DNA from: a virus
Lineage: Duplodnaviria > Heunggongvirae > Uroviricota > Caudoviricetes
DNA length: 11,077 bases
IMG/VR virus record: IMGVR_UViG_2703718845_000001
Reading direction: 5' to 3' (one strand)
In this document: positions 7,027 through 11,077 of the stretch, in pieces
Layout of the letters: each line of letters starts with the position of its first letter
Position numbering within the stretch: position 1 is the stretch's first letter
Notes under the pieces: generated by a model
The model's input: only the letters and a program-made list of their open reading frames with translations
Databases searched by the model: none
Told to the model about the DNA's origin: nothing
Program-made: the position numbers and the translations under genes

Positions 7027-7233
7027 GTGAGTTGTATTAATGACCTGAACACGGGCGATATCAGGGGTGGTTCCGTTCATCTGGATGCGCAGACCGTTAT
7101 GCGCCTTAAGCAGTACAGGATCGACCATATAAATCATCATCCTGACAAACCATTACCAGGTGTGGCGCAGATTGTCAGACATGCCGTAAACACCTGGCTT
7201 AATCAGAATGGTTTTGCATCGGTGGGGGAATAA
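7027..7233 (+). CDS. Small hypothetical protein (68 aa), translationally coupled to the protease-capsid gene
   Basis: GTG start with AAGAGGA 7 nt upstream; stop overlaps the downstream ATG (TAATG); segment VHLDAQTVMRLKQY...GVAQIVRHAVNTWL could be RHH-like; function not assignable. Confidence 0.45.
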   Translation: MSCINDLNTGDIRGGSVHLDAQTVMRLKQYRIDHINHHPDKPLPGVAQIVRHAVNTWLNQNGFASVGE

Positions 7234-9146
7234 TGAATCGCTGGTACACCATTAAGGCGGCGGATGTTCGTGGAGCGGCGGATATATCTATCTATGAGGA
7301 GATTGGCGGCTTCGGTGTTACTGCAAAGCAGTTCGCGGAAGACCTGAAAGCCCTTGGCGATGTTTCACATATCAATCTGAGGATCCATTCACCAGGTGGT
7401 GATGTGTTTGAAGGCATCGCCATCTATAACCTGCTACGGAATCATCCGGCAGACATTACGGTTTATATCGATGGTGTTGCGGCTTCAATGGCTTCGGTGG
7501 TCGCAATGGCTGGCGATCGTGTAGTGATGCCGGAGAACGCCATGATGATGATCCATAAACCGTGGGGGATCTCTGGCGGAAATGCTGGCGATATGCGTGA
7601 TTATGCTGATTTGCTGGATAAGGTGGAAACCGTGTTAATCCCTGCTTATGCCAGAAAAACGGGCAAATCAGCACAGGAAATTACCGCCATGCTGGAGGAT
7701 GAAACCTGGATGGATGGGAAAGAATGCCTTAAGCACGGTTTTGCTGATGAATTGTTGCCATCCGTCAGAGCAATGGCGCGAATTGAATCGAAACGCACAG
7801 GAGATTTTTTACATATGCCGGAAACCATTAAAGGAATGATTACACCGCCACAGGGAGCGGCAAATATTGCTGGTAATGAACAGAAGCGCATCAATGGAAT
7901 AAGTGAAGTGTTTAGCCTGTTCGGCAGTCGTTACGACGGGATCAAAATGGCGTGTCTGGAAGATGCATCATGTACACCGGAAATGGCCCGTGAAAAGCTG
8001 TTGAACGAGCTGGGGCGCGAGTCCACGCCATCCAATAAAAATACCCCGCCTCATATCTATGCCGGAAACGGAAACATAACAGGTGATGCAATTCGTCAGG
8101 GGCTTTATTCCCGTCTTGGGTATGAACGCCCTGAACGAGGCAACCCTTACGCGATGATGAGCCTTTTTGAAATGGCCCAGGCATCACTGGTTGATCGTGG
8201 TATCACTGTGAGCGGTTTTATTAATCGCTCGCAGGTTGTTAATGCGGCTTTTACACACAGCAGCAGTGATTTTTCTCATATTCTGGCTGGTGGGGCTGAA
8301 AAATCTGTACTGAAAGGCTGGCAGGACAGCGGCGAAACGTTCCAGAAATGGACGCGTACCGGTTCGCTTTCAAACTTTCATGAAGCAAAGCGCGTTGGTC
8401 TGAATGGTTTTTCAAAGCTGGATAAAGTACCGGAAGGTGCGGAATATAAATACATCACCACCAGCGATAAAGGTGTACCTATTGCGCTGGCCACGTACGG
8501 GAATATTTTTTCCGTTACCCGTCAGGCCATTATCAACGATGACCTGACCCAGTTAACTACAATCCCCATGGCGATGGGACGCGCAGCCGCCAGAACAGTT
8601 GGCAATCTGGTTTATCTCCTGTTAACCAGCAACGGCAAGTTTACGGATGGTAAAGCGTTATTCCATGCCGATCATAAAAATCTTATTGCGAAGGATATGG
8701 ACATGGTGGGGCTTGATGAAGCCCGTAAGCGGATGCGCCTCCAGGAGGATGCTAACGGCGACTCCCTGAATATTACCCCTGCTTTTGTTCTGGTCCCTGC
8801 CGCGCTGGAATCTGCCGCGCGTCGCGCCATTTTGTCATCGTCATCAGTCTTTCCGGTTGGTGATGAGAGCACTATCAATCAGAACCCCGGCATCATTAAC
8901 GTGGTGAAAGATATGGCAGAAGTAATTGTTGAGCCACGTCTTGATAAGGCCAATAGCAAGGAATGGTATGTAGCCGCAGCTAAGGGGATGGACACAATAG
9001 AAGTCGCTTATCTTGATGGGATGGATACGCCATATCTTGAGGAGCAGGTGGGCTTTACTGTTGATGGTGTCGCCTGGAAAGTACGCATAGATGCAGGTGT
9101 CGCGGCCCTCGATTATCGCGGATTACTGAAATCGAGTGGAGCATGA
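7233..9146 (+). CDS. ClpP-family prohead serine protease fused to a major-capsid-protein-like domain (capsid precursor polyprotein)
   Basis: N-terminal about 190 aa carry ClpP/S14 motifs GVAASMAS (Ser) and MMIHKPWG (His), compare E. coli ClpP GQAASMG and MIHQPLGG; the C-terminal about 400 aa is large, A/G/V-rich and ends in a glycine/beta-rich tail, consistent with an HK97-fold capsid protein but not verified; cos site and terminator follow. Confidence 0.85.
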   Translation: MNRWYTIKAADVRGAADISIYEEIGGFGVTAKQFAEDLKALGDVSHINLRIHSPGGDVFEGIAIYNLLRNHPADITVYIDGVAASMASVVAMAGDRVVMPENAMMMIHKPWGISGGNAGDMRDYADLLDKVETVLIPAYARKTGKSAQEITAMLEDETWMDGKECLKHGFADELLPSVRAMARIESKRTGDFLHMPETIKGMITPPQGAANIAGNEQKRINGISEVFSLFGSRYDGIKMACLEDASCTPEMAREKLLNELGRESTPSNKNTPPHIYAGNGNITGDAIRQGLYSRLGYERPERGNPYAMMSLFEMAQASLVDRGITVSGFINRSQVVNAAFTHSSSDFSHILAGGAEKSVLKGWQDSGETFQKWTRTGSLSNFHEAKRVGLNGFSKLDKVPEGAEYKYITTSDKGVPIALATYGNIFSVTRQAIINDDLTQLTTIPMAMGRAAARTVGNLVYLLLTSNGKFTDGKALFHADHKNLIAKDMDMVGLDEARKRMRLQEDANGDSLNITPAFVLVPAALESAARRAILSSSSVFPVGDESTINQNPGIINVVKDMAEVIVEPRLDKANSKEWYVAAAKGMDTIEVAYLDGMDTPYLEEQVGFTVDGVAWKVRIDAGVAALDYRGLLKSSGA

Positions 9147-9152
9147 CAACAA

Positions 9153-9175
9153 GGGCGGCGACAGCCGCCTTTTTT
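9153..9175 (+). terminator. Rho-independent terminator after the protease-capsid gene
   Basis: ggcggc-gaca-gccgcc followed by tttttt, 7 nt after the stop codon. Confidence 0.6.
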
Positions 9176-9300
9176 ACGGGTCCTCCCGGTGGAGTGGTCT
9201 GCCACGGGGCGGGAGCGGCGCGGAAAAAGGCTAGTTTTTGCATTTTCATTCGTCATCATCATCTTTCTATGATATTGAATTTTAAGTGTTTTTATTTTTA
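9165..9300. other. Lambda-like cos site (cosQ/cosN/cosB-like), copy B
   Basis: acgggtcctcccggtggagtggtctgccacg gggcgggagcgg... aligns with the lambda cos junction; downstream cgtcatcatc...aagtgtttttattttta resembles lambda cosB (cgtcataacttaatgtttttatttaaaa); sits about 100 bp upstream of the Nu1-like gene, as in lambda. Confidence 0.65.
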
Positions 9301-9402
9301 GTATGTTAATTTTGCTTGTTTTATGCTCAACATATAGCGCATTTTTTGACCTCTTCTGAAAATTGTTCGCAAGATGCATGTTTAAAACATTCTGGAGCGG
9401 GT

Positions 9403-9888
9403 ATGGATCGAGAACTGAAAAATCTGATGCTGAACATTAATCAACTGGCGGCGATAGCGGGAATATGTCGTCAGACTGCGGCGGCAAGGCTGAAAAACAT
9501 CCAGCCAGCCGGAGGGCATGACAAGCTGAAACTCTATCGGGTGACTGACATTCTGACCTGTTTTCTTGATCTTCCCGTTCCGGCATCACTGGAAGAAATG
9601 GAGCCACATGACCGTAAGGCCTGGTATCAGTCCGAACGTGAGCGCCTCAAGTTCGAACAGGAAACGGCGCAACTCATACCCGCCGATGATGTGCGAAAAG
9701 AGATGGCTATATGGGGGGAAATCGTAAGCGAGGAACTGGCAAAACTCCCCAATATTCTGGCACGTGATGCCGGGCTTAAACCGATGGCAGTAAACAGAGT
9801 GCAGTCAATTATTGACGATTTGTGTAATCAGATTATCAGCCGGATGGTAAAAAATGACGTAGTGAATGAGGTCGCAAAACAGGCATGA
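9403..9888 (+). CDS. Nu1-like small terminase subunit homolog (possible Rpp-type packaging-redirection protein)
   Basis: Probable start is ATG 9403 (GGAG 5 nt upstream; ORF track starts at in-frame ATG 9316); N-terminus INQLAAIAGICRQTAAARLKNIQPAGG...KLYRVTDI parallels lambda Nu1 VNKKQLADIFGASIRTIQNWQEQGMPVLRGGGKGNEVLYDSAAVI (winged HTH). Confidence 0.75.
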   Translation: MDRELKNLMLNINQLAAIAGICRQTAAARLKNIQPAGGHDKLKLYRVTDILTCFLDLPVPASLEEMEPHDRKAWYQSERERLKFEQETAQLIPADDVRKEMAIWGEIVSEELAKLPNILARDAGLKPMAVNRVQSIIDDLCNQIISRMVKNDVVNEVAKQA

Positions 9889-10172
9889 TAATGACTGAAT
9901 CTGAAATACTGCGATTAATCCGCCGTGCTGGTGGAATCAGCCAGCTGGCTGACGAACAGGCCAAGCAGCCGGATACCGTCACCGCTGAAAATTACGCGCG
10001 TGTGGTGGCTGATGTGATGCGCCGTGACGGTATTGAGCTTAACGGCGTGGATATGCGCAACATACGAACCAGAGTTCTTGAGTTGCTGGCATACCGTCGC
10101 CGTTCTCAACAACGGAGGGAGAGCGCGAAAAATACTTACCAGTGGAAGAAGCCGAAACGGTTGCGGCGGTAG
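9885..10172 (+). CDS. Hypothetical protein (95 aa), basic C-terminus
   Basis: Start overlaps the upstream stop (ATGA); no motif recognised; last gene before the ORF-free region. Confidence 0.55.
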   Translation: MIMTESEILRLIRRAGGISQLADEQAKQPDTVTAENYARVVADVMRRDGIELNGVDMRNIRTRVLELLAYRRRSQQRRESAKNTYQWKKPKRLRR

Positions 10173-10915
10173 ATTCCTGATATTCAGGAAAACCACGAAT
10201 CTGTGGGGTTTACTGGCGCGGTTACGGCGGTGACATGCACCGAGGCAGAACAATTACCGTAGGTTAAAGCGACAGTAGTCACACCAAAGGCAGAAATTAG
10301 CGGTTAACGTAACTGACTGATATTTTCGGGAACAGCCAACGGCTGAGGCCGGAGCTATAAAAATAGCTTTGGGTACAGTCCTCAGTTTTGAGGGATGTTA
10401 ACCAACTGAATAATAAGCAAAGCTCAAAATTGAGTTTTGTATCTGCCTGAGTTATTTCTGTGCTAACTTGTTGATATTCCCGACGGCCCAAAAATGGGTT
10501 GGCGGGTGGGTGAGTTGCAGATTTGCAACTCGACCATGAAACTACGGAAACTACCCGTAGTTTGGGTAGTAAGAGCAACACCCAGATTTTGGGGCTTACT
10601 CGCGATACCCAAATAAAGGGTATCGGTGTAAGAAATATCGTTTCTCATATGTGAGTACCGAGGGCGGAATTCCGCCTTCGGTTACTTATTGTGCCCATGC
10701 ACAGGGAGGGGCGGGTCAAATCTCTGTACCCTGACGTCTTCCGGACTGCCAGCCCCATCGATTTTTTATACCCGCGAAAAATGAAAAACGCTTCACGCTG
10801 GTGGGCCTGATGCCGATATGGGGATCCACATAACGGATTATCCGTGATCATCGACCAGCTATCATGTCGGATAGTTAAAGTTTCATGACAGGTATGATGT
10901 TGCGTAACTTGTTGT

Positions 10916-11053
10916 TTTTATACCTGCTTATACTCTGTCACGGTATCCTATAGGTATCCTAGAAAAAACGAAGGGGTCACGCTGTTAACGTAACCCCTTG
11001 ATAGATATGGTGGCCCCTGTTGGGTTTGAACCAACGACCAAGCGATTATGAGT
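10916..11053. repeat. Right copy of 138-bp imperfect direct repeat (element-side att arm overlapping the intact tRNA 3' half)
   Basis: Colinear with 1-138; includes the 20-mer cggtatcctataggtatcct (10941-10960), the terminator and the tRNA 3' half. Confidence 0.8.
10961..10999 (-). terminator. Rho-independent terminator of the tRNA gene (minus strand)
   Basis: Minus-strand hairpin aagggg...cccctt followed by a U-run (plus-strand agaaaaaa), immediately 3' of the tRNA CCA end. Confidence 0.6.
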
Positions 11054-11077
11054 CGCCTGCTCTAACCACTGAGCTAA
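11008..11077 (-). tRNA. tRNA with CAU anticodon (ileX/ileY-like tRNA-Ile2, or Met-type); 5' end truncated by the window edge
   Basis: Reverse complement reads TTAGCTCAGTGGTTAGAGCAGGCGACTCATAATCGCTTGGTCGTTGGTTCAAACCCAACAGGGGCCACCA: D-arm, anticodon loop CTCATAA, T-arm and CCA end; about 6 nt of the 5' acceptor strand lie beyond position 11077. Confidence 0.85.

What the first reader, a model, noticed from the sequence alone, without database searches (positions are those of the whole stretch)
10173..10915. About 740 bp of ORF-free, hairpin-dense DNA at the right end
No convincing ORF on either strand, yet the region holds several strong local structures: a perfect 8-bp stem hairpin (10512-10531), 7-bp stem hairpins at 10541-10561 and 10604-10624, a hairpin at 10353-10368, a 14-bp perfect palindrome ggcggaattccgcc (10663-10676, extendable to about 22 bp) and paired gcggttRcggcggt repeats (10159-10171, 10217-10230). 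This is too long for a simple att arm; it may encode small RNAs, a partition or packaging-accessory site, or arm-type recombination sites.
Basis: seen in the sequence. Interest (0 to 1): 0.5.

Follow-up and report, generated by a model that had tools for sequence, protein, structure and literature searches.

The report
Satellite right end: second cos, hairpins
The gene-free 740 bp is the right end of an E. coli phage satellite: it holds a second kind of DNA-packaging (cos) site, matching that of capsid-forming satellites, and before it a conserved satellite-specific hairpin block of unknown function.

Summary
10173-10915 has no credible gene, and 10400-10800 is far more structured than chance (z about -8).

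The window is one roughly 10.9-kb PICI-type phage satellite inserted at tRNA-Ile (attL 1-138, attR 10916-11053). The finding covers everything between its last gene (orf95) and attR. It is a mosaic of four modules:
- **A (10173-10463):** an optional insert made of degenerate copies of the "orf95 3' end + TGATATT + hairpin" junction.
- **B (10464-10703):** a hairpin array found in 13% of complete E. coli genomes. It always lies downstream of orf95, across satellites with different integrases, capsid genes and terminases, and never in phage genomes. It shows compensatory stem changes and ends in a terminator-like hairpin.
- **C (10704-10786):** a homologue of the experimentally mapped cos site of SfI/SfV/phiP27 (HNH-dependent terminases). 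It is 99-100% identical to the cos of capsid-forming PICIs. The cohesive-end equivalent is TGCCAGCCCC at 10747-10756.
- **D (10787-10915):** only 10838-10915 is confined to islands at this att site.

The island therefore carries two packaging systems' sites: two lambda/mEp460-like cos copies upstream, plus C. Module B's function is inferred only; a structured 3'UTR/terminator is my best guess. This is a new variant of a known kind, of moderate interest.

The parts
9885..10172 (+). orf95 (phrog_1561, unknown function), the last gene of the satellite. Its stop codon and last codons form the first copy of the repeated junction. The hairpin block always lies downstream of a homologue of this gene.
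   Evidence: (phrog_1561, E 1e-51). No Pfam, NCBIfam, PADLOC or PDB sequence match.
10173..10463 (+). Module A, an optional 291-bp insert. It holds degenerate copies of the junction 'GCGGTTRCGGCGGTRA + TGATATT + short hairpin' (at 10158, 10217, 10298 and 10455) and small hairpins at 10174-10190, 10193-10206, 10333-10345, 10353-10368, 10380-10393 and 10422-10435.
   Evidence: A is absent from most related islands, where the orf95 stop abuts module B. The motif TAACTNNNTGATATT occurs 8 times against 1.05 expected. A looser version with the same three-unit skeleton occurs in cf-PICIs.
10464..10506 (+). Module B1. An exact IHF consensus lies on the - strand (TATCAACAAGTTA, 10464-10476), followed by a hairpin (10479-10506) whose stem varies by compensatory changes between islands.
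   Evidence: pairs 33/44 and 34/43 changed on both sides. In some islands the hairpin is replaced by an unrelated hairpin (L050, L017 second copy, L008).
10507..10628 (+). Module B core, 122 nt. It holds a 20-bp palindrome or hairpin (10512-10531), the 9-nt repeats AAACTACNN x2 with inverted GTAGTTTGG and GTAGTAAGA (10539-10573, two alternative hairpins), a hairpin at 10573-10602, and a hairpin at 10603-10625.
   Evidence: This is the most widely shared part (715 of 5426 E. coli genomes match the wider 10464-10700 query). It is absent from 50,697 phage records. It is 93-97% identical where the adjacent orf95 3' end is only 72-82% identical. Compensatory changes are seen.
10629..10703 (+). Module B3. 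A small hairpin (10633-10649) and a GC-rich 11-17-bp hairpin (10657-10682, extendable to 10651-10690) followed by TTACTTATTGT. This is the candidate terminator of the late operon.
   Evidence: (terminator-like site on the + strand). The U-tract is interrupted, so function is not shown.
10704..10786 (+). Module C, a cos site of the HNH-dependent SfV/SfI/ST64B/phiP27 type, in the variant carried by capsid-forming PICIs.
   Evidence: It is 82-95% identical to the genome termini or annotated cos of these phages. It is 99-100% identical to the site in cf-PICIs that encode their own HNH, P27-family TerS and TerL (L017, L042, L078).
10747..10756 (+). Equivalent of the 10-nt cohesive end. It reads TGCCAGCCCC here, TGCCCGCCCC in SfI (mapped experimentally) and CGCCCGCCCC in phiP27.
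   Evidence: Alignment A2; PMC3636060; phiP27 feature at L004 2544-2553; variant table.
10787..10915 (+). Module D. 10787-10837 is shared with islands that use other integrases. 10838-10915 is found only in islands at tRNA-Ile (probable att arm). It contains a - strand promoter-like site (10865-10837).
   Evidence: D matches of 32, 51, 88 or 129 nt according to att site; a D-like block also occurs in an island at yejO.
10916..11053 (.). attR, a 138-nt direct repeat of attL (1-138, 95% identical). It comprises 95 nt downstream of tRNA-Ile plus the 3' 43 nt of the tRNA (tRNA on the - strand, 11011-11077, cut by the window end).
   Evidence: D1; Rfam tRNA, 55 bits; tRNA-Ile annotated in L001.
9156..9249 (+). 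Lambda/mEp460-like cos (copy 2), just upstream of the DUF1441 small-terminase gene (9316-9888). The cohesive end starts near 9202. Copy 1 is at 6621-6714.
   Evidence: D2, 93% identity between copies; the record of mEp460_4F5 starts at window 9202.

Best explanation
The 743-bp stretch is the non-coding right end of a PICI-type phage satellite. It is a mosaic of exchangeable modules, not one element.

**Shown**
1. 10704-10786 is a second cos site, of the HNH-dependent SfV/SfI/phiP27 class. It is identical to the cos of capsid-forming PICIs, and it points the same way as the island's two lambda/mEp460-like cos copies.
2. 10464-10703 is a hairpin array specific to satellites. It always follows orf95, whatever integrase, capsid gene or terminase the satellite has. 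Its stems are kept by compensatory changes.
3. 10173-10463 is an optional insert built from degenerate copies of the orf95-end/hairpin junction.
4. Only 10838-10915 is confined to islands at this att site.

**Inferred mechanism**
- After excision the island replicates as concatemers. These can be cut and packaged at the lambda-type cos (with its own DUF1441 TerS and a lambdoid helper) or at module C. Cutting at C would need a terminase/HNH set from an SfV/P27-type prophage or from a co-resident cf-PICI. This would widen the range of helpers.
- The hairpin array is transcribed as the 3'UTR of the late (capsid/packaging) operon, because nothing separates it from the orf95 stop codon.
- It most likely acts at the RNA level as a stabilising, terminating block whose last GC-rich hairpin stops transcription before cos, attP and int. 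Its strong sequence conservation suggests that some factor also recognises it specifically.
- Module A is most simply a scar of repeated recombination at that junction.
For: **Context**
- attL/attR and the tRNA.
- Gene content (integrase, AlpA-like HTH, Icd-like, DUF4222, D5/P4-alpha-like primase, ClpP-protease/capsid fusion, DUF1441 TerS, orf95).

**cos**
- Matches to the termini of SfII, SfV, SfI, SfIV and ST64B and to the annotated phiP27 cos.
- The SfI cohesive end TGCCCGCCCC was mapped experimentally (PMC3636060). The window has TGCCAGCCCC at the aligned position.
- cf-PICIs with their own HNH, TerS-P27 and TerL carry a 99-100% identical module C at the same place.
- This cos class occurs in 1651 of 5426 E. 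coli genomes.
- The lambda-type cos is confirmed by mEp460-family termini.

**Hairpin block**
- z-scores of about -8, and an outlier within the window.
- Present in 715 of 5426 genomes and in no phage record.
- Always downstream of orf95 in about 96 loci, and more conserved than the orf95 3' end.
- 89.9% of cells paired against about 41% when partners are slid; 9 pairs changed on both sides (shuffles 5.8 +/- 1.4); the covariation score was exceeded by 0 of 500 shuffles.
- Examples: CGATACCC/GGGTATCG becomes TGATACCC/GGGTATCA, CGATACCT/ATGGTATCG or CGATCCCC/GGGGATCG.
- The + strand folds 8.7 kcal/mol better than the - strand in 24 of 25 variants.
- Terminator-like site at 10657-10682.
- Non-coding.

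**Module A and the att arm:**
Against: - No transcript data exist, so the RNA-level role of module B is inference only.
- z-scores are equal on both strands. Two stems are perfect palindromes through their centres (GCAGATCTGC in most islands, GGAATTCC), as expected for DNA-level sites.
- The putative terminator has an interrupted U-tract. In L008-type islands the same hairpin lies upstream of the B core.
- The structure tested was derived from the window sequence, which inflates 'cells paired'. The sequences are closely related, so covariation counts are few.
- The near-invariance of the B core is more than a simple stabiliser or terminator needs.
- The window encodes no HNH, TerL or P27-type TerS. 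Module C may therefore be an unused passenger acquired by recombination with a cf-PICI. Its cohesive-end sequence differs by one base from the mapped phage sites.
Confidence: 0.55

Rival explanations
1. The hairpin block B is a DNA-level cis-acting site. It could be an accessory part of the cf-PICI-type cos (analogous to cosQ or cosB, giving satellite-specific recognition or termination of packaging). It could instead be a binding array for orf95 and IHF that organises the DNA end.
For: - B core, B3 and C form one contiguous conserved block wherever C is present.
- All L007-type cf-PICIs whose right end is intact and fully within the contig have B followed by C.
- An exact IHF consensus lies at 10464-10476. 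The other exact matches lie next to a lambda-type cos copy and in the att core.
- Some stems are perfect palindromes through the centre, and there are 9-bp direct and inverted repeats.
- In other islands the same location holds iteron cassettes that duplicate the island's main origin iterons. The right end is therefore a place where DNA sites accumulate.
- B is strictly linked to orf95.
Against: - B occurs in satellites that lack module C and use lambda-type cos and TerS (L003-type), and in cf-PICIs without a detectable C (L008-type). It is therefore not tied to one terminase.
- In the related phages everything left of about 50 bp from the cut site is HNH coding sequence, so no upstream accessory site is expected.
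- Four unrelated palindromes would need several different binding proteins.
- Compensatory changes at different stem positions fit a folded strand better than protein read-out.
Confidence: 0.25
2. B (or part of it) is an independent regulatory small RNA, or a 3'UTR-derived sRNA, that acts in trans on helper-phage or host transcripts.
For: - The structure is conserved, with some covariation and a better fold on the + strand.
- The core is more conserved than the neighbouring coding sequence.
- It is restricted to satellites.
- A terminator-like 3' end is present.
Against: - No Rfam match at E<=1.
- No conserved sigma-70-like promoter upstream.
- The upstream flank of the core is replaced by unrelated hairpins in different islands.
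- No single-stranded seed region is evident.
- No published sequence match.
Confidence: 0.12
3. The whole region is the extended attP arm, carrying arm-type integrase, Xis and IHF sites.
For: - The region abuts attR.
- An IHF consensus is present.
- 10838-10915 is confined to islands at this att site.
Against: - Modules A to C occur unchanged in satellites with different integrases (412 aa against 473 aa) and different insertion sites: tRNA-Ile, fis, ydgV, a prophage terminase gene and yejO.
- The IHF site is more than 440 bp from the core.
Confidence: 0.04
4. The region is non-functional: a decayed gene remnant or random spacer kept only by recent common descent.
For: - Module A looks like recombination scars.
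- The islands are closely related, so conservation alone is weak evidence.
Against: - No protein-family hit in any frame.
- Fold z-scores of about -8.
- Compensatory stem changes.
- The core is better conserved than the adjacent gene across divergent islands.
- Module C matches a mapped cos site.
Confidence: 0.04

Closest known systems
cos sites of HNH-dependent cos phages (SfV, SfI, SfII, SfIV, ST64B, phiP27; HK97-like packaging with P27-family TerS, TerL and an HNH endonuclease)
   Same: 83 bp are 82-95% identical, covering the GC-rich 10-nt cohesive-end position. The orientation is the same as in the phages.
   Different: - In the phages the site lies between the HNH gene and terS. Here it follows a hairpin block and precedes att and int.
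- The window has none of the three enzymes.
- The cohesive-end sequence differs by one base, TGCCAGCCCC against TGCCCGCCCC.
Capsid-forming PICIs (cf-PICIs; prototype EcCIEDL933, bioRxiv 10.1101/2022.09.08.507074)
   Same: orf95, hairpin block B and, in L007-type elements, a 99-100% identical module C occupy the same right-end position after terL.
   Different: The window island has no portal, connector, HNH, P27-TerS or TerL genes. It has a ClpP-protease/capsid fusion, a DUF1441 TerS and lambda-type cos sites instead. It is not a cf-PICI.
EcCICFT073-type Gram-negative PICIs with two lambda-like cos sites (cos1 and cos2) and Rpp (PMC6092414, PMC6739421)
   Same: - The overall island plan (integrase, AlpA-like regulator, primase with an adjacent origin) is the same.
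- Both have duplicated lambda-like cosN regions.
   Different: - Both EcCICFT073 cos sites are of one class.
- Here a third cos, of a different terminase class, is added at the right end.
- The island encodes a TerS and a capsid protein. No relative of the solved Rpp structures was found among PDB sequences for orf95 or the TerS.
SaPIbov5 of Staphylococcus aureus, a satellite using two packaging routes. This is from my own knowledge of Quiles-Puchalt et al. 2014, which is cited but was not read here.
   Same: One satellite carries determinants for two different packaging machineries, one of them an HNH-dependent cos.
   Different: - It is an unrelated element in a different phylum.
- SaPIbov5 combines a cos site with a pac-type TerS, not two cos classes.
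Lambda nut sites (boxA + boxB) and BIME-1/RIP elements (an IHF site between palindromes at operon ends). Both are from my own knowledge and serve as leads only.
   Same: - A conserved linear motif is followed by a 5-bp-stem hairpin with an A-rich loop, repeated downstream of a gene whose product ends in an arginine-rich tail.
- An IHF consensus sits next to palindromes at the 3' end of an operon.
   Different: - No boxA or REP consensus is present.
- The loops are AAAA or AAAU, not GAAAA.
- orf95 gives no alignment to lambda N.
- The sites lie after the last gene, not near a promoter.

Membership tests
HNH-dependent (SfV/phiP27-type) cos site | Sequence homology to an experimentally mapped cos region | tested here: met
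   Identity is 82-95% over 76-83 bp to the SfI, SfV, SfII, ST64B and phiP27 termini or cos feature. The SfI ends were mapped by sequencing virion DNA (PMC3636060).
HNH-dependent (SfV/phiP27-type) cos site | A GC-rich 10-nt cohesive-end sequence at the aligned position | tested here: met
   TGCCAGCCCC at 10747-10756 matches TGCCCGCCCC at 9 of 10 positions.
HNH-dependent (SfV/phiP27-type) cos site | Cognate HNH endonuclease, P27-family TerS and TerL encoded by the same element | tested here: not met
   tblastn with the L007 HNH, TerS and TerL finds nothing in the window. The enzymes would have to come from a helper prophage or a cf-PICI.
HNH-dependent (SfV/phiP27-type) cos site | Cleavage at the site and packaging in vivo | not testable with these tools
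   This needs virion DNA end-mapping or cos-plasmid transduction.
Capsid-forming PICI | The island encodes the full capsid and packaging set (major capsid, protease, portal, connectors, HNH, TerS, TerL) | tested here: not met
   Only a protease/capsid fusion and a DUF1441 TerS are present.
Gram-negative PICI (EcCICFT073-like) | A size of about 10-15 kb; an integrase with att repeats; an AlpA-type regulator; a primase/replicase with an adjacent iteron origin; a helper-type cos; no tail or lysis genes | tested here: met
   - The att repeats are 10,915 bp apart.
- Integrase, HTH_17, D5-type primase and TerS are present.
- TGTTCACC iterons lie at 6244-6481.
- A lambda-type cos is present.
- Inducibility by a helper was not tested.
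Any described RNA family (Rfam 15) | A covariance-model match | tested here: not met
   No match within 10173-10915 at E<=1. Only the tRNA at 11011-11077 matched.
Intrinsic (Rho-independent) terminator | A GC-rich hairpin followed directly by a U-tract on the transcribed strand | tested here: inconclusive
   The site at 10657-10682 has an 11-bp stem with 8 GC pairs and the tail TACTTATTGT. The U-tract is interrupted, and no equivalent site was called in L003 or L008.
Lambda-type nut site / N-like antiterminator pair | A boxA consensus, a boxB hairpin with a GNRA-like pentaloop, and an N-family protein | tested here: not met
   No boxA is present. The loops are AAAA or AAAU. orf95 has no Pfam family and gives no BLASTP alignment to lambda N.
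Origin of transfer (oriT) mimic | Similarity to the oriT of a conjugative or mobilisable plasmid | tested here: not met
   The only plasmid-collection hits to module B are an excised satellite, a mislabelled chromosome and one 32.6-kb record (CP088587.1) that was not examined. No other plasmid record matches it.
attP arm (arm-type integrase sites) | The sequence co-varies with the integrase and insertion site | tested here: not met
   This fails for 10173-10837, which is shared across integrase types and five insertion sites. It holds only for 10838-10915.

The most novel reading that the evidence does not exclude
The island may be a satellite of a satellite. It is a lambda-cos PICI with its own capsid protein, and it also keeps the exact cos variant (TGCCAGCCCC) and upstream hairpin block of capsid-forming PICIs. 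A co-resident cf-PICI's HNH/TerS/TerL machinery could then package it. In this reading the orf95 + hairpin block is the shared, satellite-specific recognition or regulatory module that separates satellite DNA from helper-phage DNA. orf95's arginine-rich tail might bind the hairpins.
Probability: 0.12. Interest if true: 0.8.

Novelty: new variant of a known kind. Interest (0 to 1): 0.45.

Why it matters
Phage satellites move virulence and defence genes, and their host range depends on which helpers can package them.

- **Two cos classes in one island.** A single 11-kb island carries cos sites for two unrelated terminase classes. One class is shared with about 30% of E. coli genomes and with cf-PICIs. 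This would explain promiscuous transfer and would point to cross-parasitism among satellites.
- **An undescribed conserved element.** The hairpin block is a strongly conserved non-coding element that marks a whole superfamily of E. coli satellites (13% of complete genomes). I found no description of it in the papers I searched.
- **Practical uses.** The block is a ready marker for finding satellites and a defined target for deletion experiments.

Tried and rejected
- **Rfam at E<=1:** nothing in the region. ARAGORN found no tRNA-like gene.
- **Coding remnant:** no PHROG or Pfam hit for any internal ORF. The open + frame over the core is not conserved as a gene.
- **Tandem repeats:** none.
- **Lambda-type cos inside the region:** rejected. 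The lambda/mEp460-like cos copies are at 6621-6714 and 9156-9249, outside it.
- **oriT mimic:** no plasmid homology.
- **KilA-N gene fragment in module A:** only a 38-nt match at E 4e-3 inside phage kilA-like genes. Treated as chance.
- **P4-type crr:** TGTTCACC iterons occur only at 6244-6481. Related islands do carry a second iteron cluster at their right end.
- **Distant relatives for covariation:**
  - An exact-pattern scan of one genome per species found nothing.
  - An orf95 scan found one Shigella locus that lacks the B core.
  - The family is therefore narrow, and covariation power is limited.
- **orf95 structure:** the AlphaFold model had pLDDT 65 and was all-helical. It was too weak for a fold search, so none was run.
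- **orf95 against lambda N:** no alignment.
- **Literature:** no paper contains the core sequences. The cf-PICI and PICI papers give no cos position or description for this region.
Full report
**Context**

The window is essentially one mobile element. A 138-nt direct repeat (1-138 and 10916-11053, 95% identical) brackets it. The right copy contains the 3' part of a tRNA gene on the - strand (Rfam tRNA, 55 bits). That gene is annotated as tRNA-Ile in a 98%-identical E. coli locus, next to mug and rpoD.

All genes between the repeats are on the + strand:
- a tyrosine integrase (319-1740);
- an unassigned low-GC ORF;
- an AlpA-like HTH_17 protein;
- an Icd-like protein;
- a DUF4222 protein;
- a D5/P4-alpha-like primase (4413-6245), followed by TGTTCACC iterons;
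- a ClpP-protease/major-capsid fusion (7233-9146);
- a DUF1441 small terminase (9316-9888);
- a 95-aa protein of unknown function (orf95, phrog_1561).

This is a PICI-type phage satellite. The finding (10173-10915) is exactly the stretch between the orf95 stop codon and attR.

**Observation check**

No gene is present:
- The internal ORFs (94, 61 and 68 aa on the - strand; 40 aa on the + strand) have no PHROG or Pfam match.
- Most listed E. coli matches have no feature annotated under them. In the loci inspected, the 'hypothetical protein' listed is the upstream orf95 homologue, which overlaps the match by 3 nt.

The structure is far beyond chance:
- 10464-10700 gives z = -8.1 on the + strand and -8.2 on the - strand.
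- The whole region gives -6.6 and -8.3.
- In a sliding scan of the window, 10401-10640 (z -5.9) and 10561-10800 (z -4.5) rank 2nd and 4th of 68 windows. The background is -1.1 +/- 1.7, and only the origin iterons are more structured.
- The last 200 bp are not unusual.

**The region is a mosaic**

Megablast against 5,426 complete E. coli genomes finds the region in 737 of them, but only 41 cover 80% or more of it. Most matches start at 10464 and stop at one of several recurrent points: 10628, 10677, 10704, 10788, 10818 or 10837. I compared annotated loci and 85 IMG/VR loci recovered with a core pattern. Four modules emerge.

**Module C (10704-10786) is a cos site**
- It matches, at 82-95% identity, the physical ends of the genomes of SfV, SfIV, SfI, SfII and ST64B, and the feature annotated 'cos-site' in phiP27.
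- In these phages the site lies between an HNH endonuclease gene and terS/terL.
- The SfV record begins, and the SfI record ends, within the aligned block.
- For SfI the 10-nt cohesive end TGCCCGCCCC was determined by sequencing virion DNA (PMC3636060). phiP27 has CGCCCGCCCC. The window has TGCCAGCCCC at 10747-10756.
- Capsid-forming PICIs that encode their own HNH, P27-family TerS and TerL (L017, L042, L078) carry a module C that is 99-100% identical to the window's. It has the same TGCCAGCCCC and sits at the same place, after terL and an orf95 homologue.
- The window itself has none of those three enzymes.
- This cos class is very common. Its core occurs in 1,651 of 5,426 E. coli genomes, mostly in prophages. 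cf-type terL occurs in 532.

Upstream, the island also has two copies of a lambda-like cos (6621-6714 and 9156-9249). mEp460-family genome ends map to window 9202. Duplicated lambda-like cos sites are already known in EcCICFT073 (PMC6092414 and PMC6739421). What I did not find described in the papers searched is a third cos, of a different terminase class, in the same small island. All three cos sites have the same orientation.

**Module B (10464-10703) is the hairpin array**

Distribution:
- It is present in 715 of 5,426 genomes, with up to six copies per genome.
- It is absent from 50,697 phage records.
- In the plasmid collection it appears only in a 10.8-kb circular record that looks like an excised satellite, a mislabelled chromosome and one unexamined 32.6-kb record.

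Association with orf95:
- B accompanies orf95 in satellites that otherwise differ in integrase and insertion site: tRNA-Ile, fis, ydgV and a prophage terminase gene.
- These satellites also differ in capsid genes and terminase type.
- B is therefore not an integrase arm site, and it is not tied to one packaging enzyme.

Conservation:
- The 122-nt core (10507-10628) is 93-97% identical in islands whose adjacent orf95 3' end is only 72-82% identical.

Evidence for selection on structure:
- The last core hairpin occurs as CGATACCC/GGGTATCG, TGATACCC/GGGTATCA, CGATACCT/ATGGTATCG and CGATCCCC/GGGGATCG.
- The first hairpin has stems GCCC/GGGT, ACGC/GCGT and GTGC/GCAC. In some islands it is replaced by an unrelated hairpin.
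- The extension of the 20-bp palindrome changes from GGT/ACC to AGTC/GACT.
- On a 25-sequence alignment, 89.9% of cells pair against about 41% when partners are slid. Nine pairs change on both sides (shuffles 5.8 +/- 1.4, 15 of 500 reach this). The covariation score is reached by 0 of 500 shuffles.
- Caveats: the structure was taken from the window sequence, and the sequences are close relatives.

Coding potential:
- The core is not coding. An open + frame exists, but its start and stop vary from 13 aa to more than 70 aa, and most differences are nonsynonymous.

Which strand, or DNA versus RNA, is not settled:
- The + strand folds on average 8.7 kcal/mol better in 24 of 25 variants.
- But the shuffle-corrected z-scores are equal, and two stems are perfect palindromes through the centre.

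Position in the transcript:
- B begins at the orf95 stop codon with no intervening terminator.
- It ends in a GC-rich hairpin with a U-rich but interrupted tail (10657-10682).
- It must therefore be transcribed as the 3'UTR of the late operon.

**Modules A and D**

Module A (10173-10463) is present in only about 10% of the loci. Elsewhere the orf95 stop abuts B.
- It is bounded by copies of TAACTNNNTGATATT (8 matches in the window against 1.05 expected).
- It contains degenerate copies of the last codons of orf95 (GCGGTTRCGGCGGTRA), each followed by TGATATT and a short hairpin.
- cf-PICIs have a looser version with the same three-unit skeleton.
- The conserved TAACTTGTTGATA is an exact IHF consensus on the - strand. 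The only other exact matches in the window lie next to a lambda-type cos copy and in the att core.
- I read A as a scar of repeated recombination at this junction. A function for the repeated unit is not excluded.

Module D: the first 32-51 nt are shared across integrase types, and only 10838-10915 is confined to islands at tRNA-Ile.

In other islands the same right-end position carries iteron cassettes:
- GCGGGTTA repeats between two B-core copies, identical to those at the island's main origin (L045, L088).
- GTGACA x4 in place of the core (L097, L099).

The right end is therefore a general depot for cis-acting DNA sites.

**Mechanism**

Shown: a cos homologue of a second class, a conserved satellite-specific hairpin array linked to orf95, and mosaic exchange.

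Inferred:
- Concatemers of the excised island can be cut at the lambda-type cos (own TerS plus a lambdoid helper's TerL) or at C.
- Cutting at C would use an SfV/P27-type prophage's terminase or a cf-PICI's terminase.
- The hairpin array acts as a structured 3'UTR and terminator that ends late transcription before cos, attP and int.

The main rival is a DNA-level role for B, as a cos accessory or a binding array for orf95 and IHF. The arm-site and junk explanations are poorly supported.

**Comparison and novelty**

The closest known things are the SfV/phiP27 cos, cf-PICIs, EcCICFT073-type PICIs with two cos sites, and dual-route packaging in SaPIbov5 (the last from my own knowledge). The island is a PICI but not a cf-PICI. 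Module C passes the sequence tests for the cos family but lacks cognate enzymes in cis. B matches no described RNA family or plasmid site, and no paper contains its sequence.

The cf-PICI papers mention a variable region after the packaging operon, and a 'hypothetical gene 1792' whose loss severely reduces transfer. I could not establish whether that gene is orf95.

Verdict: a real, conserved, composite cis-acting region. One part is now explained (cos) and one remains open (the hairpin block). It is a new variant of a known kind, of moderate interest.

Noticed in passing
window 6621-6714 and 9156-9249: A 94-nt lambda/mEp460-like cos-containing segment is present twice (93% identical). The two copies flank the protease/capsid fusion gene, and the second lies just upstream of terS. 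This is reminiscent of cos1 and cos2 of EcCICFT073.
   Followed up: partly
window 6244-6481: A dense array of TGTTCACC/GGTGAACA iterons in direct and inverted order lies downstream of the primase gene. From memory, this is the iteron sequence of the P4 alpha protein. It is the most structured stretch of the window (z -9.4).
   Followed up: partly
window 1724-2449: A 241-aa ORF directly after the integrase lies in a 32-34% GC patch. It has no convincing Pfam, PHROG, NCBIfam or PADLOC match. It is a candidate accessory or defence cargo gene.
   Followed up: partly
window 2808-3812: The 334-aa ORF is probably an artefact. Only its last roughly 80 residues match a family (Icd-like, 3561-3812). A near-consensus promoter (3463-3491, 11 of 12) and a strong - strand terminator (3573-3537) lie inside it.
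   Followed up: partly
window 4-48, 224-268, 10919-10963: A 45-nt motif containing GGTATCCTATAGGTATCCT occurs in both att repeats. A third, 78%-identical copy lies between attL and the integrase gene. It may be an integrase-binding repeat or an old att remnant.
   Followed up: no
L017 4650-4960; L045 2051-2166 and 9710-9854; L088: In some cf-PICIs two copies of the hairpin core, 434 bp apart, flank a cassette of GCGGGTTA iterons around an AT-rich stretch. The same iterons occur at the island's main origin. This gives a P4 ori/crr-like two-site arrangement.
   Followed up: partly
L097 4531-4561; L099 5407-5437: Four GTGAC(A/G) repeats at 10-11-bp spacing occupy the position of the hairpin core in a Shigella cf-PICI and in an island at yejO. 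L099 also has a diverged cos variant (CATGCACAGGGAGGGGGCGGGTAAAATCTCTG...GACCGCCGCCTGACCC).
   Followed up: no
L005 (NZ_CP148328.1, whole record): A 10,790-bp circular 'plasmid' is a complete satellite of this family, with integrase through orf95 plus modules B and C. It is presumably an excised or episomal copy caught by the assembly.
   Followed up: partly
L003 (NZ_CP038416.1 1881394-1899607): In O157:H7 a related satellite carrying module B sits inside the large-terminase (gpA) gene of a lambdoid prophage. This is the helper-embedded PICI arrangement described in PMC10111431.
   Followed up: partly
window 10090-10169 (orf95 residues 69-95): orf95 ends in a nearly invariant arginine-rich tail (YRRRSQQRRESAKNTYQWKKPKRLRR). 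By eye it resembles RNA-hairpin-binding arginine-rich motifs such as that of lambda N, but BLASTP finds no alignment.
   Followed up: partly
L045 about 10110-10250: The second hairpin-core copy is cut short by a sequence that I recognise from memory as an IS903-type insertion-sequence end.
   Followed up: no
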